From assembly GCA_964403725.1 (NCBI GenBank), contig CAYOHI010000003.1, forward strand, positions 14,374 through 78,373: a stretch of DNA of 64,000 bases. Reading direction: 5' to 3'. Shown one piece after another: positions 13,476-61,692 of this stretch. The DNA is from an uncultured Candidatus Saccharibacteria bacterium. Its GTDB lineage: Bacteria; Patescibacteriota; Minisyncoccia; Portnoybacterales; UBA2143. The translations under genes were made by a program, and so were the position numbers. The notes below the pieces were generated by a model that saw only the letters and a list, made by a program, of their open reading frames with translations, ran no database searches and had not been told where the DNA came from. The first letter of the stretch is position 1; each line of letters opens with the position of its first letter.

Positions 13476-14297
13476 TTATTTCTGCATATCGTAGCTTTTG
13501 GGGACCGTTCTCATCTCTCCCGTTTCGGTGTTTAACAGCCCTTCATAGGCCGGGTATCCCTCGACGTCCGGCGAGATCGGTTCGCTTTTCCGCATGTGCT
13601 TGTCCGCTTGGTTGATCCAACCAGGCTCGTCGAGAAGATTGTTGTACGTCCAGCCCCTGAACCAAATCCAGGGATTTTTCTTCTCGGGAAGTCTTACGAT
13701 GACTTCCAGTGATCCATCGGCGGTTTGCTGGCGGGTTACTCCGTTGGAGTAATTATCTCCCGTCGGAATAATGGGAATCCAGCTCTTACTATCAGTCCAG
13801 TGGATCCCGAAGAAAGACGTGAAGTTGTCCGGGTTTCCCCTGGAGATGTAATAGGGCATTTTGAACACCCCTTCTCCCCTTTGGACTTTCACGAGCTCAA
13901 ACGGCCCGGAGAAGCCTCCTGCTTCCGGCAGAACGATCCTCCCTTCATCGGGAGGAGGTTCCGATTCGAGGGCCATTGCTTCTGCTTCGGCATCGTGTTG
14001 TTCCACGCCCGCGGCGGCAAAAGAAGCATGTGCCGATGATAATGCCACACTAAACGCTTCTGAAGGAATCGCTCCTGCTGCCGCTGCTGCTTGAGCAGAT
14101 GAAAAAGCCGCTTCCATGGCTGCTTCTTTTTGAGCTTCTGTGGGATCCACAAAACTTTCCAAAGCACTCAAGTAACCGCTATTGGCAGCCGTCTGAATTT
14201 GCTCCGGACCCATTTCATCTTTTGTTTCCAACATCGCACACCCGCTCAGGAAAAATAGAGCGAGAACCCCTGCCAGTGAAAATCTTAACCATTTCAT
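13476..14297 (-). CDS. lipoprotein, Ala-rich (G+C-rich island gene 4)
   Basis: Signal peptide with lipobox MKWLRFSLAGVLALFFLSGC. SD GGAGGT is about 9 nt upstream of the ATG at 14295-14297. G+C is much higher than in flanking genes. Confidence 0.6.
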   Translation of the reverse strand: MKWLRFSLAGVLALFFLSGCAMLETKDEMGPEQIQTAANSGYLSALESFVDPTEAQKEAAMEAAFSSAQAAAAAGAIPSEAFSVALSSAHASFAAAGVEQHDAEAEAMALESEPPPDEGRIVLPEAGGFSGPFELVKVQRGEGVFKMPYYISRGNPDNFTSFFGIHWTDSKSWIPIIPTGDNYSNGVTRQQTADGSLEVIVRLPEKKNPWIWFRGWTYNNLLDEPGWINQADKHMRKSEPISPDVEGYPAYEGLLNTETGEMRTVPKSYDMQK

Positions 14298-14513
14298 CTT
14301 TCTATACCTCCACTTGTTGTAGTTACTAGTTAAAAGATATATATTTCTCAACAGAAACTATGTTTCCGGTAGAATCTCATATGACTTTGCCTATTATCCC
14401 AAACTTTTCATAAGCCATTTTGGCCTTTCCCGACATCTTGTCAAAGAACAGTTGGTGCCCATCTTGGGACTAATAATACACATTTTGTGTAAAATTATCA
14501 ACTGAAGAAAGCA

Positions 14514-15944
14514 TTAAGGACAATCTATGCAAAAGTCTTTCTTTGTTGGCGCAGTGATTTGCGAGGACCTATATGCCTTTATCAGTCCGCTGACCGATAA
14601 ATATCCAGAGATCCAGTGCCATTGGTCTCCATCTCCGCCCAAATTCTCTTTGTAATTCAGAGGAGAGACGGATAAGATATCCTCACCGTGCCAAGCCATG
14701 GTCAAACGAGGTCCGAATTGGATAAAATCCGGAGACTCTAAACCGTTTTCGTTGATATATGCCAAATTGACGCCAGGCGTCAACAGTAGGTTATCAGAGA
14801 TCTCAAAGTCATAGATATGCTGAGTTAAAGTAATCTCTAAGACCTGGTTGTTGTGCGGGTCAGGATCCAGAGGATTGCCATCCCAACTATGTTCATGTTT
14901 CTGATTGCTGGGTAAGGTAAACTCAACATTGAGTTCGGTCTTGGAAAACCCCTTTTCGCCTTGGACACGGCGATCATAGAGATTCACATGTGCCGAGGCT
15001 ACGAGAAGATCATCAGTCTGCTTGCTTCTGTACAGATTGATCTTCCCTTTGCTGACTTGTCTTCCCCAGCCTAAGTCAATGTCCATGTCCCAGTTGTCCT
15101 TGTGGCCGATTAACTTGAGCGACGGCCCGACAACGCCTTTCCACCAGTCATACAGATAATCTTCATCGTCTCCACCGCCGGTGGCGCCGAATCCGAATAC
15201 ACCCAGACAGGCAGAAATACGGTCAGTCACGTTGAATCCGAAAGGCCGAGCACGACCCTTGATCCAAGCGTACCAACCGTCATGGTAGTAATCCTTGTTG
15301 TTCGAGTTCATCCAGCGGTCGGTCTCGTAGATTCCGCCGCCAGTATAAAGGTCCAGACCACAGCTCTTCTTTTTCTTGAGCGCAGCTCCAGTCTCTTTGT
15401 ACCTCGGTACCGGTGGTAATACCGCCGCCTTAACCTTTGCTGGCTTCGGGAACGGGTTTTTCTTGTAGCGAAATCTCGGTACCGGCGGATATTCGGCAGC
15501 CGGTTTTGACTTCTTCCTGATTGCCCAGTTACCGCAGACAAGCGGGTACCAGAGTTCATACTCGTCATCGATGTCATAAACTCTGGCCATGACAGTCTTG
15601 TCAAAACCGACAACAATCGGCTCGTCTTGCCAAATCTTGTAGTTGCCGAAAATCATCTTTTCAAAGGTATCCCCGGTTTCAATCTGTCCCCACCGGGAAT
15701 TTCTGATTCGATGATTAGCGATGATTTCTTTTGCCTTCGTTTTGTCGAGACCAAGACGAATTAACGCCTTATAGTCTCGTCTCAGCTGTTGAGGTGAATA
15801 GAACTCCGGAGATTTCCGGAAGGAATTTCTTCCAGGCTCTTGCCAAATGCGTGCCTCTGCCGCGGAAGCGACAGAGAGCAACAGGATAATTAGCATACCT
15901 ACTGCTCGTTTCATCTGTCGCCTCCTTTGTTTTGCGATTTTCAT
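14514..15944 (-). CDS. large secreted protein of unknown function (island gene 3)
   Basis: N-terminal signal peptide (MKRAVGMLIILLLSVASAAEA). The C-terminal half is rich in G/D/N/W/Y, with alternating patterns reminiscent of beta-rich surface proteins. An alternative start at M11 (15914) is possible. Confidence 0.5.
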   Translation of the reverse strand: MKIAKQRRRQMKRAVGMLIILLLSVASAAEARIWQEPGRNSFRKSPEFYSPQQLRRDYKALIRLGLDKTKAKEIIANHRIRNSRWGQIETGDTFEKMIFGNYKIWQDEPIVVGFDKTVMARVYDIDDEYELWYPLVCGNWAIRKKSKPAAEYPPVPRFRYKKNPFPKPAKVKAAVLPPVPRYKETGAALKKKKSCGLDLYTGGGIYETDRWMNSNNKDYYHDGWYAWIKGRARPFGFNVTDRISACLGVFGFGATGGGDDEDYLYDWWKGVVGPSLKLIGHKDNWDMDIDLGWGRQVSKGKINLYRSKQTDDLLVASAHVNLYDRRVQGEKGFSKTELNVEFTLPSNQKHEHSWDGNPLDPDPHNNQVLEITLTQHIYDFEISDNLLLTPGVNLAYINENGLESPDFIQFGPRLTMAWHGEDILSVSPLNYKENLGGDGDQWHWISGYLSVSGLIKAYRSSQITAPTKKDFCIDCP

Positions 15945-16814
15945 CTATATCCTTACAAGCCTTCCGGCTTCAAGTTCCGTCCTAAAGACGGCTTCATCTT
16001 TTTTCAGAACGCCACCACTAGCTTTGGCTGCATCCTTGGCCTTTTCGTACAACACCCCCTTATACAAGGAAATAAACATACTGTCATCATCATTCCTTTG
16101 AGGAGTATAACGATAGGATTGGCCTTTGATCTTGAGCGGAAATGATTCTTGTACAGGTGATTGGACGTTCGGTTGAACTGTCGGCGGCGCTTGAACTTGA
16201 ATCTGATTATGATTATTCCCTCTCAGTGACCTGAGAAGAATAATGATTACGATAACCATTATCAAGGCAAATACAGCGCCTCCGATCATGAAGTACTTCA
16301 TGATTCTGTTTTCGGTCTGGTTGATTCTGGTCAGAAGATTATCACTACCCTTTTGGACCTGCCGCCTTAAACTAGCCTCGGTATCCTTTACTGCTGCCGC
16401 AACTTCTTGCTGGCCGTTTTGGATAGCGCGACCCGTGTCCTGAATAGTTCTGGTAGTTTGATATTGGCTGCTTTGGATAACACGACTCGTATCCTGAGCA
16501 GCTTGGCGTTGGCCAGAAATGATTTGTGCAGATTTCTCTGCTAAAACATCCCTAACCTCGGGTTGGATGTAATAGACGATTTCCTTGCCTTTCGGCAGGA
16601 TTCGCCAGTTTTTATTGATCCAAGGGTTCCACTCATGAATTTCCTTGGGTGAAGCCCCACAGAGTTTTCTAATCACGAGATAGATGTCACCAAGGGTCTC
16701 CCCTTTGGCGATAATATGGATTTTTCTCTCCCCTTCAGTTTGAGCGCTGACAAAGGGGCTAAGAGTTAACGTCAAAACACACGCTATTGCCAATATGATC
16801 GATGTTGCCTTCAT
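15945..16814 (-). CDS. LysM-domain membrane protein (island gene 2)
   Basis: Signal peptide MKATSIILAIACVLTL, then a LysM domain (HIIAKGETLGDIYLVIRKLCGASPKEIHEWNPWINKNWRILPKGKEIVYY). QDTxRxIQ repeats and one TM helix follow. The start was moved to the M preceded by GGAGGAGGA. Confidence 0.65.
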   Translation of the reverse strand: MKATSIILAIACVLTLTLSPFVSAQTEGERKIHIIAKGETLGDIYLVIRKLCGASPKEIHEWNPWINKNWRILPKGKEIVYYIQPEVRDVLAEKSAQIISGQRQAAQDTSRVIQSSQYQTTRTIQDTGRAIQNGQQEVAAAVKDTEASLRRQVQKGSDNLLTRINQTENRIMKYFMIGGAVFALIMVIVIIILLRSLRGNNHNQIQVQAPPTVQPNVQSPVQESFPLKIKGQSYRYTPQRNDDDSMFISLYKGVLYEKAKDAAKASGGVLKKDEAVFRTELEAGRLVRI

Positions 16815-16876
16815 TATTCCTCCTCCCCATCTTGGGATCTTCTCATCTTGAGGACTAATCATCCATCTTGGAGTAA

Positions 16877-17908
16877 TCAGTCTTTGAAAAGAAATAATTG
16901 GAATTTAAGCTCGTTGATGAGCTCTTGTTGTTTCAAAATTCGTTCATCGCGGTTTTTCAGAAGTTTCTTGTAGATCAGCACCATTTGCCTAAACAAAGGT
17001 GCTATTCGATAACGCAAAACCTCGGCCCGAGCAAAAGAGCCCGTCCAGCTGTCATCAACCCCGGCAACGATAGCATCGCTAGCCAGACTGACACCAGCTG
17101 AAGCCAAAAGCCCAATACCACTAAGCGGTAAGGCAATCAGCGGAACCTTGGCCCGTTTGAGGTAACGATCAACTCCGTTGAATCCGGGAATTTCAACCGC
17201 TGCCTTTTTAAACATCTCCAAAGGAAGAACGCCGCATCTGATTTCTCCATTGCCCATCTTGTAGTTATGAGGCATGATTCTGGACACCTTGTCCTTGTAA
17301 TCAAGCCAATCATCAGACGGAATGGAAATTTCCAGCATGCTGGACAAGTCAGTTGGCGGTTCAAGTCCCTTGTCTTTTAAATAATCGTGCCAGAATTGAT
17401 CGATTTGACTGATCATTTGGCCGTGATTATCAAAAAGAGACTTCCGATAGTCGTGGTTTTTGTCGAATTCTTTGGGATCATACTCAATCTGTTTCCCAAG
17501 AGGCGTGTAGGCAAACCCTGCATCTCTGTTGAAATACAGAATCTTGCCGCCTTGGATGTCCTTATAGGGACCCATGAAAACAAATTGAATCTGCCAGTCT
17601 CCCCAATAGGTAACGCTTGTCAAAAAAGCATCGCCGCTGAGGATCTCGCCGTAGGTGGTTTGGACCAAAAAAGACCATACTCCGCCGGCGTTTATGACCT
17701 CTACCCAAAGTCCAGGCTCCAATAACCCCTGGAAGGTTACAAATTTCTTAATTCCAGCTTTCTCAAGCTCGACCGGATGAAGGATTGATATCCCATCAGC
17801 CGGATCAAGGCGCGTATGTCCCGATATTTCTTTTGGAATATACTTATTGGGATTACTCGCGCATCCGATTAACAATAAGACGAATATCATTGCCAGTTTT
17901 TCTTTCAT
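16877..17908 (-). CDS. lipoprotein (island gene 1)
   Basis: Lipobox in MIFVLLLIGCAS. SD GAGGTG upstream. Higher G+C than flanking genes. Confidence 0.55.
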   Translation of the reverse strand: MKEKLAMIFVLLLIGCASNPNKYIPKEISGHTRLDPADGISILHPVELEKAGIKKFVTFQGLLEPGLWVEVINAGGVWSFLVQTTYGEILSGDAFLTSVTYWGDWQIQFVFMGPYKDIQGGKILYFNRDAGFAYTPLGKQIEYDPKEFDKNHDYRKSLFDNHGQMISQIDQFWHDYLKDKGLEPPTDLSSMLEISIPSDDWLDYKDKVSRIMPHNYKMGNGEIRCGVLPLEMFKKAAVEIPGFNGVDRYLKRAKVPLIALPLSGIGLLASAGVSLASDAIVAGVDDSWTGSFARAEVLRYRIAPLFRQMVLIYKKLLKNRDERILKQQELINELKFQLFLFKD

Positions 17909-42097: not shown

Positions 42098-42289
42098 TTA
42101 TCCACAATTACCCTTGTTTATCCCCACTTTTATCCACAATTGATTACCTTACATCCATTATATGTTACTAATTATTCCCTGTCAAACACTCAAAACCCAC
42201 TTATTTTGCTGTTAAGAAAAATACAAAAATGGCTTATTCAAGCCATTTTATGTAAAAACACCGTATTTTCTATCCACATATTATCCCCA
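42098..42289 (+). promoter_or_regulatory. cluster of DnaA-box-like 9-mers (TTATCCACA) upstream of mraZ. Candidate DnaA-regulated dcw promoter, MraZ operator, or replication-related element.
   Basis: TTATCCACA at 42098-42106 and 42130-42138 are perfect matches to the E. coli consensus. TTATCCCCA at 42118-42126 and 42281-42289, and CTATCCACA at 42270-42278, match at 8 of 9 positions. All are in the same orientation and separated by AT-rich DNA. Confidence 0.5.
42229..42248 (-). terminator. rho-independent terminator of the 42281-42730 gene
   Basis: AATGGCTT-ATTC-AAGCCATT is a perfect 8-bp hairpin. The minus strand then continues TTTTTGTATTTTT. Confidence 0.6.
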
Positions 42290-42763: not shown

Positions 42764-43339
42764 TTAAATTTTTAACCTATTGATTAATTTCTCATGGGGC
42801 TTTTCCAAGACATCCCTTAAGAACCGATCAAACATATCATATCGATATTTAAAGTCTTCGCTTGAAAGAAGCACATAATCGATTTCCTTACCTACTTCTG
42901 CTTCTAAATCTCTTAGAAAACCAGAGAGATTTTTCTTCTTAACACTATCCCCGACTATTAAAAGATCTACTCTTGTGTTATCAGCATCAACAAAGATACC
43001 AGAGAGGATAGCTAAGCTAATTTTCCCGATACTTCTTAATCTCTTTAATATTCTTTCTTTAGAAGCAGGACTAGACTTTAGAACTAGGGTTTTTAGTTCC
43101 TTGTAAAAGACAAACCCGGGATTTATTGAATAATACTTCTTATTCCTCTTAACTCGACTATTGATGAATTTGATGCTTTCTAATTTCTTAATTTGTCTCT
43201 GACAGGCGGATGAATCACTCCTGATTCTTTTAGCTATCTCCTGTAAGTAAAAAGATTGACCTTTGTTGCGCAAAAACAACTTTAGCAATCTAACTTTAAC
43301 TGGAGAATCAAAAAGCTGTTCCAAGATTTCTTTACCCAT
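42764..43339 (-). CDS. winged-helix transcriptional regulator with C-terminal nucleotidyltransferase-like domain
   Basis: N-terminal ArsR/MarR-like wHTH (LQEIAKRIRSDSSACQRQIKKLESIKFI). The C-terminal part has a G..D.D-like pattern (LSGIFVDADNTRVDLLIVGD). Confidence 0.45.
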   Translation of the reverse strand: MGKEILEQLFDSPVKVRLLKLFLRNKGQSFYLQEIAKRIRSDSSACQRQIKKLESIKFINSRVKRNKKYYSINPGFVFYKELKTLVLKSSPASKERILKRLRSIGKISLAILSGIFVDADNTRVDLLIVGDSVKKKNLSGFLRDLEAEVGKEIDYVLLSSEDFKYRYDMFDRFLRDVLEKPHEKLINRLKI

Positions 43340-43430
43340 AATACTCCCTTCTCCTCCTTATATATAAATTAAACCTACTATCTCTAGTAGGTTTAATTCT
43401 ATCAAAATATTTGATTTGATTCAATAAGAA

Positions 43431-43868
43431 TTACTTCAAATCAACACCGGCACCAGCTTCTTCTAATTTCTTCTTCATCTCTTCGGCTTCTTCTTTCTTG
43501 ACTCCTTCTTTTAGAGTCTTAGGAGCTCCGTCAACTAAATCTTTGGCTTCTTTTAGACCAAGACCGGTAATTTCTTTAACTACCTTGATTACAGCGATCT
43601 TTTGGTCTCCAGCGCTAGTTAATTCAACATTGAACTCGCTTTTTTCTTCAGCGGCTTCACCGCCATCAGCAGCGCCAGCTGCTGGAGCTGCAGCCATAGG
43701 CACAGCACTAACACCGAACTTTTCTTCTAAGACTTTGACTAATTCAGCTAAGTCCAATACGCTAAGCTCTTCAATTTGTTTTACTAAATCTTTAAACTTA
43801 GAAGGAACTTTGACTTCCTTAGTTTCTTCCTTAGTTTCTTCTTTTTTCTCTTTTTTTTCTTCTGCCAT
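43431..43868 (-). CDS. rplL: 50S ribosomal protein L7/L12
   Basis: The C-terminal domain [31 protein letters not shown] is canonical. An Ala-rich hinge is present. Confidence 0.95.
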
Positions 43869-43924
43869 TTTTTTATTGAAACCTATATCTTATCTATTTC
43901 ATTAATTAATGAAATAGATAAGAT

Positions 43925-44446
43925 TTAAGCTTCCTTCTTTATATTACTTAATACAAAAACTAATTTTCTCAAATTACCCTGCAAAGCATTGGCTAATCCA
44001 TACATAGGGCTTGAAATATTGCCTACTAGCTTGGATAGAAGCTCTTGCTTTGATGGCAATTTGGCTAAACTAATTATTGCTTCATTTTCTAAATGATTTC
44101 CTTCAATAATACCTGTTAAAATCTTTACTTCTTCATTTTCTTTAGAAAACTCATGTAAGATCTTAGCTGGGATAACTTCATCTTCATAACCTAAAATTAA
44201 AGCAACTTGGCCAGGCACTTCCTTGATTTTCTCGGGAATCTTCAAACCAGCTTTTTCTAAAGACAAGTCAATTAAGGTTTTCTTAATTACCTGACAATCA
44301 ATTCCTTCTTCTCTTAATTTACCTCTTAATTCTTGGAATTGATCTACTTTAAGGCCGGTATAGTCAAAAAACACAACTGCTTTATGACGATTCAGCTTAT
44401 CGACTAAATCACTGATTAATTCTTTTTTCTTGTCTTTTGTAATCAT
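43925..44446 (-). CDS. rplJ: 50S ribosomal protein L10
   Basis: The uL10 N-terminus AVVFFDYTGLKVDQFQELRGKLRE is present, and the gene lies immediately upstream of rplL. Confidence 0.9.
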   Translation of the reverse strand: MITKDKKKELISDLVDKLNRHKAVVFFDYTGLKVDQFQELRGKLREEGIDCQVIKKTLIDLSLEKAGLKIPEKIKEVPGQVALILGYEDEVIPAKILHEFSKENEEVKILTGIIEGNHLENEAIISLAKLPSKQELLSKLVGNISSPMYGLANALQGNLRKLVFVLSNIKKEA

Positions 44447-46227: not shown

Positions 46228-46373
46228 TTGACTTTTAAGTAACAATGATATATAATGCAAATACACGTAAGTTTCTCTAAAAGTTTTCTCTTTCCTTATG
46301 CTTGTGCGTAAGTCAAAAAAAGAAACCATAAAAGAAGAAAGTCGACTTACGCTTTAACAACACGAAAGAACAT
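46228..46373 (+). promoter_or_regulatory. promoter (TTGACT, 17-nt spacer, TATAAT) and long structured 5' UTR of the RRM-protein gene
   Basis: Perfect -10 at 46251-46256. The roughly 110-nt leader contains a 9-bp long-range stem GCGTAAGTC (46306-46314) / GACTTACGC (46344-46352), plus a repeated CGTAAGT. Confidence 0.4.
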
Positions 46374-46667
46374 ATGAATAAGAAATTATATGTAGGTGGT
46401 CTACCTTATGAAACCACCGAAGATGAGTTGAAGGAAGCCTTTGCTAAGGCCGGTACCGTTGAGTCAGCAGTTATTATTACTGACAAAATGACTGGTCGTT
46501 CAAAAGGATTTGGCTTTGTTGAGATGTCTTCTGAAGAAGAAGCTCAAGCAGCCATTGAAATGTGGAATGGCAAAGAGTTTGGTGGTCGCAACTTGACCGT
46601 CAACGAAGCCCGTCCAATGAAGGAACGCCCACAAGGCAACTTCAACCAAGATAACAAAAATTGGTAA
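46374..46667 (+). CDS. RRM-type RNA-binding protein
   Basis: RNP2 LYVGGL and RNP1 KGFGFVEM motifs. 97 aa. Confidence 0.85.
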   Translation: MNKKLYVGGLPYETTEDELKEAFAKAGTVESAVIITDKMTGRSKGFGFVEMSSEEEAQAAIEMWNGKEFGGRNLTVNEARPMKERPQGNFNQDNKNW

Positions 46668-46686
46668 ATTTATTTATCGATATATC

Positions 46687-46712
46687 AAAAACAGCCCATC
46701 TGGGCTGTTTTT
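46687..46712. terminator. bidirectional rho-independent terminator
   Basis: CAGCCCA-TC-TGGGCTG hairpin with flanking A-run and T-run, between convergent genes. Confidence 0.65.
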
Positions 46713-46733
46713 GAATTCAAGATTTAATTAATA

Positions 46734-47678
46734 TTAATCTAATTCCCTAATTGGAGTAAGAACTTCTTTTTTTAAATGATCCTCGATGCTTTTTTCAATA
46801 CATTGATTACCCTTTTCATGCGGCCAGATTTCCCTATAATATTCATATCTAGAATTATCATCATCTAAATTAGAAGTTCTGAAATTAGCACACAGTTCAA
46901 AATCAGTCTCACTTAAAACACTGTATTCATAATTTGTCTTTGTCTCTGGATCAGTTACTGTTTCTGAAGTTATGAATTTAATCTTTTCACTTAAAACAGA
47001 CAGATCTTCTGGCAATTTTTCATTAGAACTATAATATTGATTTATCCCGTCATTGATCATGTTGAAATTATTTAGAACAGCCTGATCTAATTTCCTGTCT
47101 CTGGCTTCCATTGGGCTTTCTCCAAAAATTAAGGCTGAAGGCAAGACTATTAGAACAATAATTAAAGAAACGAAGAAATATGTTCTAATAATACCATCTT
47201 TAACGCCTAGGATATTCCTGCGGCGGATGTCATACAGATAGAAGCTAAAGATTAGACCTGAAATGATAATTGAGGTTAAAGCCTTCAAGCCGAATTTAAG
47301 GGTTAATTCCCCTCCTAAGAAAATATTAACTAAGCCGATGAACCAGCCTAGAATAACAATTGAAGAAATCAGAAGAATGAAATAGTTTAAGACTTTCCTG
47401 ACTTTCGAATCTTCAGCTAAAGCTCCTTTAAAAAGATTCTTGTGGATGAAGTAATTAACAACAAAGAATACTGGAGCAGCCACTATCAAGGCTGAAACAG
47501 CAAAGCGCAATGCCTCAGGATCAAAGCTATACCTGAACTGATTAATGGCGTCAGGAATATATTTATTAATAATTTGAAAAACAATCATGCCTACTGAAAA
47601 ACCAGTAAATCCTAGAGAAACTAAGGAAAGCATGTATAGGAAAGCGTATTTTGGTGAATCGTAATTATTTGTATCCAT
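46734..47678 (-). CDS. hypothetical membrane protein (N-terminal multi-TM domain plus C-terminal soluble domain)
   Basis: About 6 TM helices, then a Cys-containing acidic domain. No family recognised. Confidence 0.4.
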   Translation of the reverse strand: MDTNNYDSPKYAFLYMLSLVSLGFTGFSVGMIVFQIINKYIPDAINQFRYSFDPEALRFAVSALIVAAPVFFVVNYFIHKNLFKGALAEDSKVRKVLNYFILLISSIVILGWFIGLVNIFLGGELTLKFGLKALTSIIISGLIFSFYLYDIRRRNILGVKDGIIRTYFFVSLIIVLIVLPSALIFGESPMEARDRKLDQAVLNNFNMINDGINQYYSSNEKLPEDLSVLSEKIKFITSETVTDPETKTNYEYSVLSETDFELCANFRTSNLDDDNSRYEYYREIWPHEKGNQCIEKSIEDHLKKEVLTPIRELD

Positions 47679-60172: not shown

Positions 60173-60956
60173 ATTTTCTTTCTCTAAAATATTCCAACAG
60201 AAACTTAGCTAATAGTTCCCCACCAAGTTCATCTTCCTTATGATCAACAAAATATTCTGCCTCTACTCTTTTAGGATCAACTGTTACTCCCTTGCCCACT
60301 TGAAGCATTTCTGCATCATTATAGTTATTCCCTGTGGTCATAATCTGTTTTGGATCAATTTTTAGCTGCTTGGCTAAGTTTTCAATAGCTACTCCCTTAG
60401 ACATTATTTTACTACCAATATCATATCCTTCATTAGTCCATAGACAATACAATTCATCTTTCCCAATATCTTTGACCAAATTTGGAATCTCTTCCATTTC
60501 TTCACAATGGACTGTTAAAAGAAGAAGTTTTGGTTCAAATCCCCTAATTCTTTTATCAGTTTTTTTCATTTCCCTTATTTTAATCTTTAAATCTCTTAAT
60601 TTATTAAAATATTCATTATTATAAACAGGATGAGTTATTTTGTTATCCAACAAGGTAATATTTCCATTCTCAGCTTGAAGAATAGTATTTTCATCAAAAA
60701 TCTGATTAGTCAGAGTTTTTAAGTATAGAATATTCCTACCTGATGAAAAATTCAATCTGACATGTTTTTCTAATTCTTTTAAATTATCAATGAATTCATC
60801 TGATAGTTTTTTTGATTCCATATATAGATCAATACTATCTTCATCTATAGTTTCTTTAACTATTGTCCCCGTATGAGCAATAACGCCATCAATATCAAAA
60901 GTAATAACCTTAATATTGTCTAATTCCTCTTTTGTAATTTCTTTAATATTTTTCAT
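60171..60956 (-). CDS. HAD-superfamily hydrolase (Cof/IIB-like)
   Basis: Motif I FDIDGV and motif IV GNNYNDAEML. The start was set at 60956 (MKNIKEIT), preceded by an extended -10 (TGGTATAAT). The longer ORF would run into the upstream terminator. Confidence 0.7.
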   Translation of the reverse strand: MKNIKEITKEELDNIKVITFDIDGVIAHTGTIVKETIDEDSIDLYMESKKLSDEFIDNLKELEKHVRLNFSSGRNILYLKTLTNQIFDENTILQAENGNITLLDNKITHPVYNNEYFNKLRDLKIKIREMKKTDKRIRGFEPKLLLLTVHCEEMEEIPNLVKDIGKDELYCLWTNEGYDIGSKIMSKGVAIENLAKQLKIDPKQIMTTGNNYNDAEMLQVGKGVTVDPKRVEAEYFVDHKEDELGGELLAKFLLEYFRERK

Positions 60957-60986
60957 ATTTACATTATACCAAAATCTCAAGGATTG

Positions 60987-61025
60987 AAAAAGGACCGTCG
61001 CTTTGACGCGCATCGGTCCTTTTCG
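60987..61025 (-). terminator. rho-independent terminator of the 36-aa peptide gene
   Basis: The minus strand reads AAAAGGACCG-...-CGGTCCTTTTT, a long GC-rich hairpin followed by UUUUU. Confidence 0.6.
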
Positions 61026-61058
61026 TTTGTATAGCCATTCCTAGGCCTCCTTTTCTTC

Positions 61059-61169
61059 TCATTGAGTTTGTGTTTCTTCTTTCCGTTTACGATGAACAAG
61101 GTCATAGACCAGGACGTAAACGGAAAGCGCGAAAGTCAGCAGCCATAATGCGCTGATGAGCAGTTCCAT
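61059..61169 (-). CDS. 36-aa hydrophobic peptide with charged C-terminal tail (type I toxin-like or small membrane peptide)
   Basis: MELLISALWLLTFALSVYVLVYDLVHRKRKEETQTQ. A strong SD AAGGGGGTG lies 7 nt upstream. It has its own promoter and terminator. G+C-rich. Too short for the ORF track. Confidence 0.5.
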   Translation of the reverse strand: MELLISALWLLTFALSVYVLVYDLVHRKRKEETQTQ

Positions 61170-61197
61170 TTCTTCACCCCCTTCTGCAAAGAATTAT

Positions 61198-61230
61198 CTA
61201 TATCATACATCATAAAGTATGTTTTGTCAA
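61198..61230 (-). promoter_or_regulatory. sigma70-like promoter of the 36-aa peptide gene
   Basis: On the minus strand: TTGACA, a 17-nt spacer, then TATGAT. About 30 nt separate it from the SD. Confidence 0.45.
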
Positions 61231-61239
61231 TCATAAACA

Positions 61240-61269
61240 AGAAAAACCTGACAGATTTTTCTTGTCAGG
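61240..61269 (-). terminator. terminator of the 61265-61669 gene
   Basis: CCTGACA...TGTCAGG hairpin overlapping the stop codon. On the minus strand it is followed by TTTTTCTTGTTT. Confidence 0.5.
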
Positions 61270-61669
61270 CTTCTTTCCTCATTTCCACCTCCCTTTTCAC
61301 GAAAATATGGGCTTCGATGATATCAATGATATCCTGGAAGCATCCTTCCAGAATCGCCTTCATATCCACATATCTCACTCCATTATTGTACTCTTCCTTC
61401 CAATCAGCTCCAAATTTCAATAATGTAGGATCGCTCTCCCCGTTTATCATATATACATCAATCATGTGCTGACCGGGCTTGAAGTTATAGAAGCCATCAA
61501 GAGTTGCCTTAACGCCGATAGCGACGAAGAAATTGTCGCTCCCTTCAGGATTGAAATCAAATAGTCTTTGATAAAAATCCCTTAATCTTGTATTTTTTAC
61601 GGCTTTTATTTCTTCCTGGTCGACATATCCATCTATCAGATATCCCCTATTTCTTTTTTTGATTTTCAC
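61265..61669 (-). CDS. hypothetical cytoplasmic protein (134 aa)
   Basis: Good coding potential and no TM helix. No recognised motif. Confidence 0.45.
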   Translation of the reverse strand: MKIKKRNRGYLIDGYVDQEEIKAVKNTRLRDFYQRLFDFNPEGSDNFFVAIGVKATLDGFYNFKPGQHMIDVYMINGESDPTLLKFGADWKEEYNNGVRYVDMKAILEGCFQDIIDIIEAHIFVKREVEMRKEA

Positions 61670-61692
61670 ATTGTCCTCCTTATAAAAAGGTG

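What the first reader, a model, noticed from the sequence alone, without database searches (positions are those of the whole stretch)
60987..61230. Self-contained transcription unit for a 36-aa hydrophobic peptide (type-I-toxin-like)
Between a HAD hydrolase gene and a hypothetical gene lies an unannotated 111-nt ORF. It has a near-consensus promoter (TTGACA, 17-nt spacer, TATGAT), a very strong Shine-Dalgarno (AAGGGGGTG), and a strong GC-rich terminator hairpin with a U-tract. The peptide, MELLISALWLLTFALSVYVLVYDLVHRKRKEETQTQ, is one TM helix plus a charged tail. That is the architecture of type I toxins (Fst/Ldr/TisB/BsrG-like) and other small membrane regulators. The unit is G+C-richer than its surroundings. 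The terminator of the upstream gene overlaps its -35 region. No antisense RNA could be identified by eye, but the region is compact enough to hide one.
Basis: seen in the sequence. Interest (0 to 1): 0.6.

Follow-up and report, generated by a model that had tools for sequence, protein, structure and literature searches.

The report
Orphan 36-residue membrane peptide gene
A complete miniature gene for a 36-amino-acid membrane peptide sits in a strain-specific DNA insert of an uncultivated Patescibacteria (CPR) bacterium, but it has no relatives anywhere and nothing beyond its shape supports calling it a toxin.

Summary
On the minus strand, 61230-60985 contains a TTGACA-17-TATGAT promoter, the Shine-Dalgarno AAGGGGGTG five bases before ATG, a 36-codon ORF (61169-61059) for one hydrophobic helix plus a basic tail, and a -20 kcal/mol terminator. 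This combination occurs 4 times (3 distinct units) in 482 kb of this lineage and 0 times in each of 10 shuffles.

The type I toxin reading is not supported beyond peptide shape.
- The best opposite-strand promoter matches only 8/12.
- The ribosome site is not sequestered, and the 5' UTR is about 26 nt.
- No Pfam, NCBIfam, PADLOC, PHROGs or Rfam family matches.
- The unit is single-copy in the window.

The peptide and the neighbouring 134-aa gene are orphans. They are absent from 55 related loci and from about 1.8 billion protein representatives. Together they form a roughly 720-bp insert between a DsbD-like gene and a HAD gene. These two genes are directly adjacent in many relatives and hold other unrelated small cargo in others.

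New findings are a perfect 13-bp hairpin inside the ORF (never reproduced in 4000 synonymous recodings), a second strong RBS whose mini-ORF runs through the terminator, and two assemblies that break exactly at the unit's upstream edge.

Verdict: a real, probably translated orphan small-membrane-protein gene on recently acquired DNA. Modest interest.

The parts
60973..61692 (-). Strain-specific insert of about 720 bp between the stop codon of the DsbD-like gene (p411) and the extended -10 box of the HAD gene. It carries the 134-aa gene and the peptide unit.
   Evidence: In many relatives p411 and HAD are only 20-50 nt apart. The insert has no DNA or protein similarity to any related locus. A 'TTTTGG(A)TA' motif occurs at both edges.
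61265..61669 (-). 134-aa orphan gene (p134) with a GTG start and the SD AAGGAGG. It is a separate transcription unit upstream of the peptide.
   Evidence: The only database hit is itself. No Pfam, NCBIfam or PADLOC family matches; the only PHROGs hit is a non-significant E=0.039 to phrog_2981. The AF2 model has pLDDT 51, and the fold search on it is meaningless.
61237..61269 (-). Terminator of p134: hairpin CCTGACA..TGTCAGG plus a T-tract. The opposite strand also scores as terminator-like.
   Evidence: plus-strand hit at 61247-61269; I3, I11; -13.2 kcal/mol.
61202..61230 (-). Sigma-70-type promoter: -35 TTGACA (61230-61225), 17-nt spacer, -10 TATGAT (61207-61202). The transcription start near 61195 is inferred.
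61175..61183 (-). Shine-Dalgarno AAGGGGGTG, 5 nt upstream of ATG. It is displayed in the loop of a weak 8-bp hairpin (-6 kcal/mol).
61059..61169 (-). 36-codon ORF plus TGA stop, encoding MELLISALWLLTFALSVYVLVYDLVHRKRKEETQTQ: one hydrophobic helix (about residues 3-25) and a basic/polar C-terminal tail.
   Evidence: GC3 is 0.47.
61079..61127 (-). Perfect 13-bp inverted repeat inside the ORF, CTTTCCGTTTACG / CGTAAACGGAAAG with a 23-nt loop, -20.5 kcal/mol. It spans codons 15-31.
   Evidence: I4. It formed with probability above 0.99 in the ensemble. It was never reached in 2000 host-usage plus 2000 uniform synonymous recodings, and only 4 places in the 64 kb have such a repeat.
60964..61052 (-). 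Second strong RBS, AAGGAGG (61052-61046), 7 nt before an ATG at 61038. It opens a 24-codon mini-ORF (MAIQTKRTDARQSDGPFSILEILV) that runs through the terminator hairpin and stops inside the HAD -10 box.
   Evidence: No homologue in related loci.
60985..61027 (-). Intrinsic terminator of the peptide unit: AAAAGGACCG..CGGTCCTTTT with an inner GCG/CGC stem, then UUUUUC. It is symmetric, so it could work in both directions.
   Evidence: I8; -20.2 kcal/mol.
60954..60990 (-). The HAD gene's own promoter: TTTTCA, 16-nt spacer, TG-n-TATAAT (-10 at 60968-60963), with the HAD ATG at 60956 only 6 nt downstream. This is a leaderless-type arrangement and marks the downstream limit of the insert.
   Evidence: The arrangement is conserved in relatives.
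61231..61232 (.). Breakpoint shared by two independent assemblies. One contig ends at 61231 and another starts at 61232, immediately upstream of the -35 box.
   Evidence: Other assemblies run through this point.

Best explanation
This is a genuine stand-alone micro-gene carried on a recently acquired, strain-specific insert in a Parcubacteria-like Patescibacteria genome.

Proposed mechanism:
- It is transcribed from its own near-consensus sigma-70 promoter as a monocistronic mRNA of about 210 nt, ending at a strong intrinsic terminator.
- It is translated from an exposed, near-perfect Shine-Dalgarno site into a 36-residue peptide.
- The peptide inserts into the cytoplasmic membrane as a single helix. 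By the positive-inside rule, the HRKRK tail would face the cytoplasm.
- The perfect 13-bp hairpin inside the ORF and the terminator hairpin make the mRNA unusually structured. They most likely act on mRNA stability or decoding speed.
- The peptide acts at the membrane.

Nothing found here shows that it is a toxin held in check by an antisense RNA. It is best filed as an orphan small membrane protein on mobile or variable cargo.

Shown: the sequence signals, their joint non-randomness, the hairpin, the orphan status, and the insertion into a variable junction. Inferred: transcription, translation, membrane topology, and the role of the hairpin.
For: - Signals: promoter 11/12, SD, ORF and terminator lie in the correct order and spacing.
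- Non-randomness: the composite scan found 4 units (3 distinct) in 482 kb and 0 in each of 10 shuffles. This is the only such intergenic ORF in the window.
- Accessible start: P(unpaired) is 0.78 for the AUG and about 0.5 for the SD core.
- Structure beyond coding: the hairpin exceeds what the amino-acid sequence requires, and the transcript folds with z = -2.8.
- Foreign style: GC3 is 0.47 (peptide) and 0.44 (p134) against 0.22 for the HAD gene. All three starts in the insert have AAGGAGG-type SDs, whereas only 26 of 71 large ORFs in the window have any SD-like motif.
- Variable junction: p411 and HAD are adjacent in many relatives, while others carry unrelated cargo of 0.2-3.3 kb.
- Analogues: two unrelated units with the same layout occur in relatives. 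One sits at the same junction (L037/L022, 29 aa). The other follows an ORF I read as IS30-like (not family-scanned) and is missing from all other fetched loci, including the same-lineage L019/L040 (L018, 28 aa).
Against: - No comparative support for translation. Every copy found is 100% identical, so purifying selection cannot be tested.
- No homologue in 55 related loci, 1.84 billion protein representatives, the 5.8-billion-cluster word index, phages, plasmids or viral contigs.
- Gene callers did not call the ORF.
- The strong intragenic hairpin and the second RBS could point to an RNA-level function instead.
- No expression data are available.
Confidence: 0.55

Rival explanations
1. Type I toxin-antitoxin locus. 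The peptide would be a membrane-depolarising toxin. A cis-antisense RNA would start near 61156 on the plus strand from the weak CGGAAA-17-CATAAT promoter. It would end at the plus-strand hairpin 61247-61269, cover the start codon, SD and 5' UTR, and so block translation.
For: - The peptide size and layout (TM helix plus charged tail) and the roughly 210-nt mRNA fit the T1TA definition (PMC8594479, PMC12648545).
- The unit lies on strain-specific, foreign-looking DNA at a variable junction.
- The mRNA is highly structured.
- A plus-strand terminator-like hairpin exists at 61247-61269.
- The hypothetical 125-nt antisense RNA would present the anti-SD and anti-start stretch unpaired.
Against: - The best antisense promoter is 8/12, below the scan threshold, with no extended -10.
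- The plus-strand 'terminator' tail, CTTCTTTCCT, is poor.
- The SD and AUG are accessible and the 5' UTR is only about 26 nt, unlike the translationally inert primary transcripts of known systems.
- A near-consensus promoter on an unrepressed toxin would be lethal.
- No toxin family (Pfam, NCBIfam) and no antitoxin RNA family (Rfam) matches.
- There are no paralogous copies in the window.
- No paper in the searched library (PMC open-access plus bioRxiv) mentions type I TA together with Patescibacteria or CPR.
Confidence: 0.12
2. The unit is primarily a structured small RNA, or a dual-function RNA. The three hairpins and the purine-rich single-stranded stretches would be the functional parts, and the ORF would be incidental or secondary.
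For: - The perfect 13-bp hairpin is not explained by coding.
- The transcript folds with z = -2.8.
- In relatives L043 and L057 the same junction carries a promoter-to-terminator unit with no convincing ORF.
- The ORF is an orphan with no evidence of selection.
Against: - A near-perfect 9-nt SD lies exactly 5 nt from an ATG that opens a 36-codon frame encoding a clean TM helix. That is unlikely to be incidental: AAGGGGGTG occurs only 3 times on both strands of the 64 kb, and the composite test gave 0 in each of 10 shuffles.
- No Rfam family matches.
Confidence: 0.12
3. The unit is a non-functional passenger. It would be an intact expression cassette brought in with foreign DNA, or an ORF born from a palindrome. 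Reading a palindrome in frame tends to give hydrophobic residues from one arm and basic or polar residues from the other. The unit would have no selected role in this host.
For: - There are no homologues anywhere.
- It is absent from all relatives.
- The codon usage looks foreign.
- The two hairpin arms encode LSVY and RKRK.
- The second RBS opens a mini-ORF with no stop before the terminator, which looks like a truncated remnant.
Against: - All signals are intact and near-consensus.
- The identical sequence is found in at least four assemblies from several samples.
- CPR genomes are small and streamlined, so neutral DNA is expected to be lost. This is general knowledge, not tested here.
Confidence: 0.14
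4. A two-gene module with p134. The 134-aa protein would neutralise or regulate the membrane peptide, for example as a type V-like (GhoS/GhoT-style) RNA-cleaving antitoxin that recognises the ORF-internal hairpin, or as a protein partner.
For: - Both genes arrived together in one insert and share G+C content and SD style.
- The order, a larger protein followed by a small membrane peptide, resembles ghoS-ghoT (from memory).
- A conspicuous hairpin in the peptide mRNA could serve as a protein recognition site.
- L042 and L043 also show a 150-175-aa orphan followed by a small unit at this junction.
Against: - p134 has its own terminator and the peptide has its own promoter.
- p134 matches no family or fold and is unrelated to the L042 and L043 proteins.
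- Two assemblies break exactly between the two genes, which suggests they are separable modules.
Confidence: 0.04
5. A regulatory leader for the downstream HAD gene. Translation of the mini-ORF that overlaps the terminator would melt the hairpin (pyrBI-style coupling), letting the strong upstream promoter read into HAD.
For: A strong RBS (AAGGAGG, 7 nt, ATG) opens a 24-codon ORF that spans the whole terminator hairpin and stops 6 nt upstream of the HAD ATG, inside the HAD -10 box.
Against: - HAD keeps its own conserved extended -10, leaderless-type promoter, and it functions without any such leader in all relatives.
- The unit is strain-specific.
- Nothing ties the 36-aa peptide to this role.
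Confidence: 0.03

Closest known systems
Type I toxin-antitoxin toxins with one TM helix and a short charged tail (Fst, LdrD, PepA1, TisB, TimP type)
   Same: - A small protein of 20-60 aa (here 36) with one hydrophobic helix and a charged C-terminal tail.
- A short dedicated mRNA, predicted at about 210 nt against 150-400 nt for known systems.
- Its own promoter and terminator, and a structured mRNA.
- A location on variable, foreign-looking DNA (PMC8594479, PMC12648545).
   Different: - No detectable antisense RNA gene.
- The RBS is not sequestered and the 5' UTR is very short.
- No sequence membership in any toxin family or Rfam antitoxin family.
- Single copy.
- Toxicity unknown.
Non-toxic bacterial small membrane proteins (regulators of transporters, kinases and respiratory complexes, such as AcrZ, MgtS, MgrB, CydX)
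   Same: A single-pass peptide of fewer than 50 aa with a strong RBS, missed by gene callers, predicted to act within the membrane (PMC12648545).
   Different: Those proteins are usually conserved within a lineage and are often co-transcribed or co-regulated with their partner. This one is an orphan on a strain-specific insert, with no conserved neighbour that would suggest a target.
Analogous stand-alone micropeptide units in related Patescibacteria (L037/L022 at the same junction; L018 next to an ORF I read as IS30-like)
   Same: A promoter of at least 11/12, a strong SD, a 28-29-aa hydrophobic ORF and an intrinsic terminator, each strain- or lineage-specific. One occupies exactly the same p411|HAD junction.
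   Different: - No sequence similarity to the window peptide.
- The L037 unit has a 76-nt structured 5' UTR.
- Neither unit shows excess intragenic structure.
Type V GhoS/GhoT module (comparison from memory)
   Same: A larger soluble protein gene followed by a small membrane peptide gene.
   Different: GhoST is one operon, and GhoS has a defined RNase fold. Here there are two separate transcription units, and p134 has no recognisable fold or family.

Membership tests
Type I toxin-antitoxin system | Small (20-60 aa) hydrophobic protein with one TM helix | tested here: met
   The peptide has 36 aa, and the best 17-residue Kyte-Doolittle window averages 2.24. Definition from PMC8594479 and PMC12648545.
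Type I toxin-antitoxin system | Dedicated toxin mRNA of about 150-400 nt | tested here: inconclusive
   The promoter and terminator positions predict about 210 nt. No transcript data are available.
Type I toxin-antitoxin system | Antisense or divergent RNA antitoxin (60-200 nt) that base-pairs with the toxin mRNA | tested here: not met
   No plus-strand promoter of at least 9/12 lies in 60990-61260; the best is 8/12. No significant complementary segment occurs elsewhere in the window; the longest matches are 14 nt with E=0.06. Absence of a consensus promoter is not proof of absence.
Type I toxin-antitoxin system | Toxin mRNA folded so that the RBS is occluded until processing | tested here: not met
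   P(unpaired) is about 0.5 for the SD core and 0.78 for the AUG. The 5' UTR is about 26 nt.
Type I toxin-antitoxin system | Expression is toxic to the cell | not testable with these tools
   Needs inducible expression.
Known type I toxin or antitoxin sequence families (Pfam/NCBIfam toxins; Rfam antitoxin RNAs) | Significant match to a family model | tested here: not met
   Pfam gave 0 hits at E<=0.1. The best NCBIfam hit was an unrelated MnhG model at E=0.13. Rfam gave nothing at gathering score, and only chance-level hits at E<=10. PADLOC and PHROGs gave 0 for the peptide.
Bacterial small membrane protein gene (generic class) | ORF of 50 codons or fewer with a functional-looking RBS and a predicted TM segment | tested here: met
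   AAGGGGGTG lies 5 nt before ATG, and residues 3-25 are hydrophobic.
Bacterial small membrane protein gene (generic class) | Evidence of translation or conservation under purifying selection | tested here: not met
   No homologue exists, and all copies are identical. Translation cannot be tested here.
Independent sigma-70 transcription unit | A -35/-10 promoter upstream and an intrinsic terminator downstream, insulated from neighbouring genes | tested here: met
   The promoter matches 11/12 and is preceded by the p134 terminator. The unit's own terminator is -20.2 kcal/mol and is followed by the HAD promoter.

The most novel reading that the evidence does not exclude
Patescibacteria may carry a so far undescribed class of mobile, family-less 'promoter, SD, single-TM micropeptide, terminator' cassettes. 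These would land in particular intergenic junctions or travel with IS elements, and would act as membrane-active addiction or defence toxins. Their control would differ from classical type I systems, for example through an intragenic hairpin, a weak or non-canonical antisense promoter, or a protein partner such as p134. The window unit, the L037/L022 unit at the same junction and the unit in L018 next to an IS30-like ORF would be three unrelated members.
Probability: 0.12. Interest if true: 0.6.

Novelty: new member of a known kind. Interest (0 to 1): 0.3.

Why it matters
If the peptide is made, it adds an uncalled small membrane protein to a CPR genome. That group is poorly understood, has tiny genomes, and depends on membrane and surface functions for its lifestyle.

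The locus also shows that one conserved junction, between a DsbD-like gene and a HAD gene, repeatedly captures unrelated small cargo in this lineage. Some of that cargo consists of complete micro-genes with near-consensus signals.

No type I toxin-antitoxin system in Patescibacteria turned up in the searched literature. A demonstrated case would extend that biology to a new part of the tree, but the present evidence does not reach that far.

Practically, the case is a reminder that 'one TM helix plus a charged tail' is not enough to call a toxin.

Tried and rejected
**Homologue searches for the peptide (all negative)**
- An exact look-up found no record of it as a called gene.
- phmmer against 1.84 billion representatives gave 0 hits.
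- The word-index search with the 44-aa stop-to-stop translation found no candidate.
- tblastn against plasmids found nothing, and against phages only noise at E=6.
- tblastn against 55 related loci found nothing.

**DNA-level searches**
- blastn of the insert against phages and plasmids found nothing.
- Sensitive blastn of the insert against related loci found nothing clearly above chance (best E=8.6e-4, 73 nt at 71% identity in L015); tblastx found nothing.
- The hairpin pattern and a degenerate YDLVHRKRK pattern had no match in viral contigs.

**p134**
- Only itself was found in the protein database, and it has no relative in viral contigs.
- The AF2 model had pLDDT 51, so the Foldseek hits on it are meaningless.
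- It has no similarity to the other cargo proteins at the junction, and those proteins have no Pfam hits either.

**Other ideas that led nowhere**
- A hoped-for slightly diverged strain (P0001, listed as 99% identical) turned out to be DNA-identical. The difference was only the GTG start, so no test of selection was possible.
- The idea that excess intragenic RNA structure is a shared property of the three micropeptide units was rejected. Only the window unit shows it.
- Known RNA genes at the junction in relatives: none.
- A paralogous family within the window: none.
- UGA recoding (code 25) was considered and set aside. Large ORFs stay intact when TGA is read as a stop. This is an inference, not a formal test.
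Full report
**1. What is in the sequence**

The feature lies on the minus strand. Reading 5' to 3':
- The upstream 134-aa gene (p134, 61669-61265) ends with its own hairpin terminator (61269-61247 plus a T-tract).
- After a gap of 6-10 nt comes TTGACA (61230-61225), a 17-nt spacer and TATGAT (61207-61202). This scores 11/12 in the promoter scan.
- About 20 nt further on is AAGGGGGTG (61183-61175), followed 5 nt later by ATG (61169).
- The 36-codon ORF ends in TGA at 61059 and encodes MELLISALWLLTFALSVYVLVYDLVHRKRKEETQTQ.
- Thirty-five nt downstream is a hairpin, AAAAGGACCG..CGGTCCTTTT, followed by UUUUUC. Folded alone it is -20.2 kcal/mol.

All coordinates were re-checked base by base. The one correction is that the upstream terminator abuts the -35 box rather than overlapping it.

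**2. Is it more than chance?**

Taken alone, the promoter is not remarkable. The 64-kb window has six sites of at least 11/12 on both strands, about what I estimate from base composition. In the 3.5 kb scanned, promoter-like sites equalled the shuffle expectation.

The combination is what counts. I scanned the window plus 53 related loci (482 kb, both strands) for four features together: a promoter of at least 11/12 within 150 nt, an SD motif, a 20-60 aa ORF with a hydrophobic 17-mer, and a hairpin with a T-tract within 90 nt. This found four units (three distinct). Ten shuffles of the same DNA gave none. Within the window, this is the only SD-led hydrophobic small ORF in intergenic space. AAGGGGGTG occurs only three times on both strands.

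**3. Organism and context**

Neighbouring genes are mnmA, a thioredoxin-fold/DsbD-like membrane protein (p411), a HAD hydrolase, trpS and a release factor. Relatives of the HAD gene found in GTDB genomes are titled Patescibacteria group or Parcubacteria group. Portnoybacteria and Wildermuthbacteria appear at 61-68% identity. The host is therefore an uncultivated CPR bacterium.

Identical sequence occurs in one JGI and several ENA metagenome assemblies.

**4. The unit sits in a strain-specific insert at a variable junction**

I retrieved 38 metagenomic and 17 genomic related loci by their HAD gene (58-85% identity). In none of them does tblastn find the peptide, p134 or the mini-ORF described in section 7. 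Sensitive blastn and tblastx of the insert found nothing clearly above chance; the best was one 73-nt blastn match at 71% identity, E=8.6e-4, in L015.

In many relatives the p411 stop codon and the HAD promoter are only 20-50 nt apart, as in '...TTTGGATAATATGGTATAAT...ATG'. The window carries about 720 bp (61692-60973) inserted exactly between the p411 stop and the TGGTATAAT box of HAD. A TTTTGG(A)TA motif occurs at both edges.

Other lineages carry different, mutually unrelated cargo at the same point, 0.2-3.3 kb in size.

The insert is richer in G+C at third codon positions than its host neighbour: 0.47 for the peptide and 0.44 for p134, against 0.22 for HAD. All three starts in the insert use AAGGAGG-type SDs, whereas only 26 of 71 large ORFs in the window show any SD-like motif. 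This points to recent acquisition from elsewhere.

**5. Orphan status**

p134 finds only itself among 5.8 billion protein clusters and has no relative in viral contigs. It has no Pfam, NCBIfam or PADLOC family, and its only PHROGs hit is non-significant at E=0.039. Its single-sequence AlphaFold model is unreliable at pLDDT 51, and fold matches on it are noise.

For the peptide:
- phmmer against 1.84 billion representatives gave 0 hits at E<=0.001. With 36 residues, only relatives above roughly 60-65% identity could have passed; this is my estimate.
- The word-index search found no candidate.
- Plasmids gave nothing, phages gave only noise, and viral contigs gave nothing.
- Gene callers did not call it on any contig.

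Because every copy is identical, selection on the ORF cannot be tested.

**6. New feature: a perfect hairpin inside the ORF**

Codons 15-31 contain a perfect 13-bp inverted repeat, CTTTCCGTTTACG / CGTAAACGGAAAG, with a 23-nt loop (I4). It is -20.5 kcal/mol and paired with probability above 0.99 in the ensemble.
- With the amino-acid sequence held fixed, none of 2000 recodings using host codon usage and none of 2000 uniform recodings reached 13 bp; the maxima were 11 and 12.
- The ORF's MFE has z = -3.55 against host-usage recodings.
- Only four places in the 64 kb hold such a repeat.
- The pairing forces rare codons: CGT and CGG for Arg, at 9% and 5% usage, and TCC for Ser.

So either RNA or DNA structure has been selected here in addition to coding, or the ORF grew out of a palindrome. 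The arms read LSVY and RKRK. The two analogous units in relatives do not show excess intragenic structure, so this is not a class property.

**7. New feature: a second RBS**

Seven nt after the stop codon lies AAGGAGG (61052-61046). Seven nt further on is an ATG (61038) that opens MAIQTKRTDARQSDGPFSILEILV. This frame runs through the whole terminator hairpin and stops inside the HAD -10 box.

If transcription ends at the terminator, this ORF has no stop codon. It therefore looks like one of two things:
- a remnant of a second gene from the donor; or
- a device by which translation could oppose termination. I regard this as unlikely, because HAD has its own conserved leaderless-type promoter in all relatives.

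**8. Testing the type I toxin reading**

A type I system is defined as a 150-400-nt mRNA for a toxic 20-60-aa protein, plus a 60-200-nt antisense RNA that pairs with it (PMC8594479). Most such toxins have one TM helix with short extensions (PMC12648545).

The peptide and the predicted mRNA length fit. The rest does not:
- The best opposite-strand promoter in 60990-61260 is CGGAAA-17-CATAAT at 8/12, with no extended -10.
- No significant complementary stretch lies elsewhere in the window.
- The RBS is reasonably open and the 5' UTR is only about 26 nt. Together with a near-consensus promoter, this predicts constitutive synthesis, which is hard to reconcile with an unguarded toxin.
- No toxin or antitoxin family matches.
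- There are no extra copies.

One hypothetical antisense RNA cannot be excluded without RNA data. It would run from about 61156 to the plus-strand hairpin at 61247-61269 and would expose an anti-SD and anti-start stretch.

In the searched library, no paper links type I TA with Patescibacteria or CPR.

**9. Analogous units elsewhere**

- At the same junction, L037/L022 carry TTGACA-16-TATTAT, a structured 76-nt 5' UTR, GGGAGGGG, a 29-aa ORF (MEKKLALCILISCMAFACYWLIPSFLVIQ) and a terminator.
- L018 has TTGACA-17-TACAAT, AAGGAGG, a 28-aa ORF (MDNKMNRKVLSAWAGLFVVVIWIIIFAL) and a terminator. It lies directly after an ORF I read as IS30-like from its sequence; this ORF was not family-scanned. The 900-bp segment is missing from all other fetched loci, including L019/L040 of the same lineage.
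- L043 and L057 carry a promoter-to-terminator unit without a convincing ORF at the junction, and it has no Rfam match.

Complete small transcription units, some encoding single-TM micropeptides, are therefore recurrent strain-variable cargo in this lineage.

**10. A shared assembly breakpoint**

One contig (SCRA20-1 scaffold_7927) ends at window 61231, and another (SUTE22-1 scaffold_2024) starts at 61232. This point is immediately upstream of the -35 box. Other assemblies run through it.

This suggests a population polymorphism exactly at the upstream edge of the peptide unit, such as an insertion or a module swap. It would also mean that p134 and the peptide unit are separable. Reads are needed to resolve it.

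**11. Conclusion**

The most economical reading is a genuine, probably translated, orphan small-membrane-protein gene on recently acquired DNA. Its mRNA carries an unusually strong internal hairpin.

My confidences:

| Reading | Confidence |
|---|---|
| Orphan small membrane protein gene (best explanation) | about 0.55 |
| Non-functional passenger | about 0.14 |
| Type I toxin | about 0.12 |
| Mainly RNA-level function | about 0.12 |
| Pairing with p134 | about 0.04 |
| Leader role for HAD | about 0.03 |

In kind, it is a new and unclassifiable member of the known class of bacterial small membrane proteins. Interest is modest. It would rise if transcript data revealed an antisense partner, or if such cassettes proved to be a common mobile class in CPR genomes.

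Noticed in passing
window 61231-61232: Two independent metagenome assemblies break at the same dinucleotide. One contig ends at 61231 and another starts at 61232, just upstream of the peptide promoter's -35 box. Other assemblies are continuous there. This suggests an insertion or module-swap polymorphism.
   Followed up: partly
window 60964-61052 (minus strand): A second strong RBS (AAGGAGG, 7 nt, ATG at 61038) opens a 24-codon mini-ORF. It reads through the terminator hairpin and stops inside the HAD -10 box. No homologue was found.
   Followed up: partly
window 60954-60990, and the same position in L004-L057: The HAD gene has a conserved TG-n-TATAAT box only 6-9 nt before its ATG and no SD. 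This is a leaderless-type start, conserved across the relatives.
   Followed up: partly
L037 3967-4216 and L022 1620-1869: An unrelated stand-alone unit sits at the same p411|HAD junction. It has TTGACA-16-TATTAT, a 76-nt structured 5' UTR, GGGAGGGG, a 29-aa hydrophobic ORF and a terminator. The transcript's z-score is -3.3.
   Followed up: partly
L018 1666-1752 (minus strand), next to ORF 1824-2810: A 28-aa hydrophobic peptide unit with an 11/12 promoter, AAGGAGG and a terminator lies directly downstream of an ORF I read as IS30-like (not family-scanned). The 900-bp segment matches no other fetched locus, including L019/L040 of the same lineage.
   Followed up: partly
L043 4716-4973 and L057 4817-4974: A shared promoter (CCTTGACAAGGAATTCC..TATGAT/TATAAT) is followed by a 140-240-nt transcript with a 5' AACGGRCTGGAT segment, a complementary ..CCRGYCCGTT segment that appears to carry compensating changes, and a common terminator. 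This is a candidate unknown small RNA at the same junction, with no Rfam match. My alignment of the two was poor.
   Followed up: partly
L042 4814-4969: Another promoter-like (TTGACT) to terminator unit follows a 174-aa orphan gene at the junction. Its nature, RNA or peptide, was not determined.
   Followed up: no
window 42098-42185 (minus-strand promoter at 42185): The only perfect 12/12 promoter in the window (TTGACA-17-TATAAT) is followed by two perfect DnaA boxes (TTATCCACA at 42098 and 42130). This may be an oriC or dnaA-type control region.
   Followed up: partly
window 13476-17908: A G+C-rich block (45-50% G+C, GC3 about 0.5, against about 0.33 elsewhere) holds four ORFs of 291-476 aa with no Pfam hits. 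At least two of them have strong SDs and signal-peptide-like N-termini. It looks like another foreign orphan island.
   Followed up: partly
window ~43290-43480, ~43850-43990, ~46620-46770: These are the only other places in the window with perfect inverted repeats of at least 13 bp and a loop of 40 nt or less. They were not examined. An 11/12 promoter lies at 46228 on the plus strand nearby.
   Followed up: no
L028, L031, L036, L039, L056, about 40-60 nt upstream of the HAD start: In the more distant relatives, DnaA-box-like TTGTGGATAAC motifs lie between a divergent gene and the HAD promoter, instead of the p411 junction.
   Followed up: no
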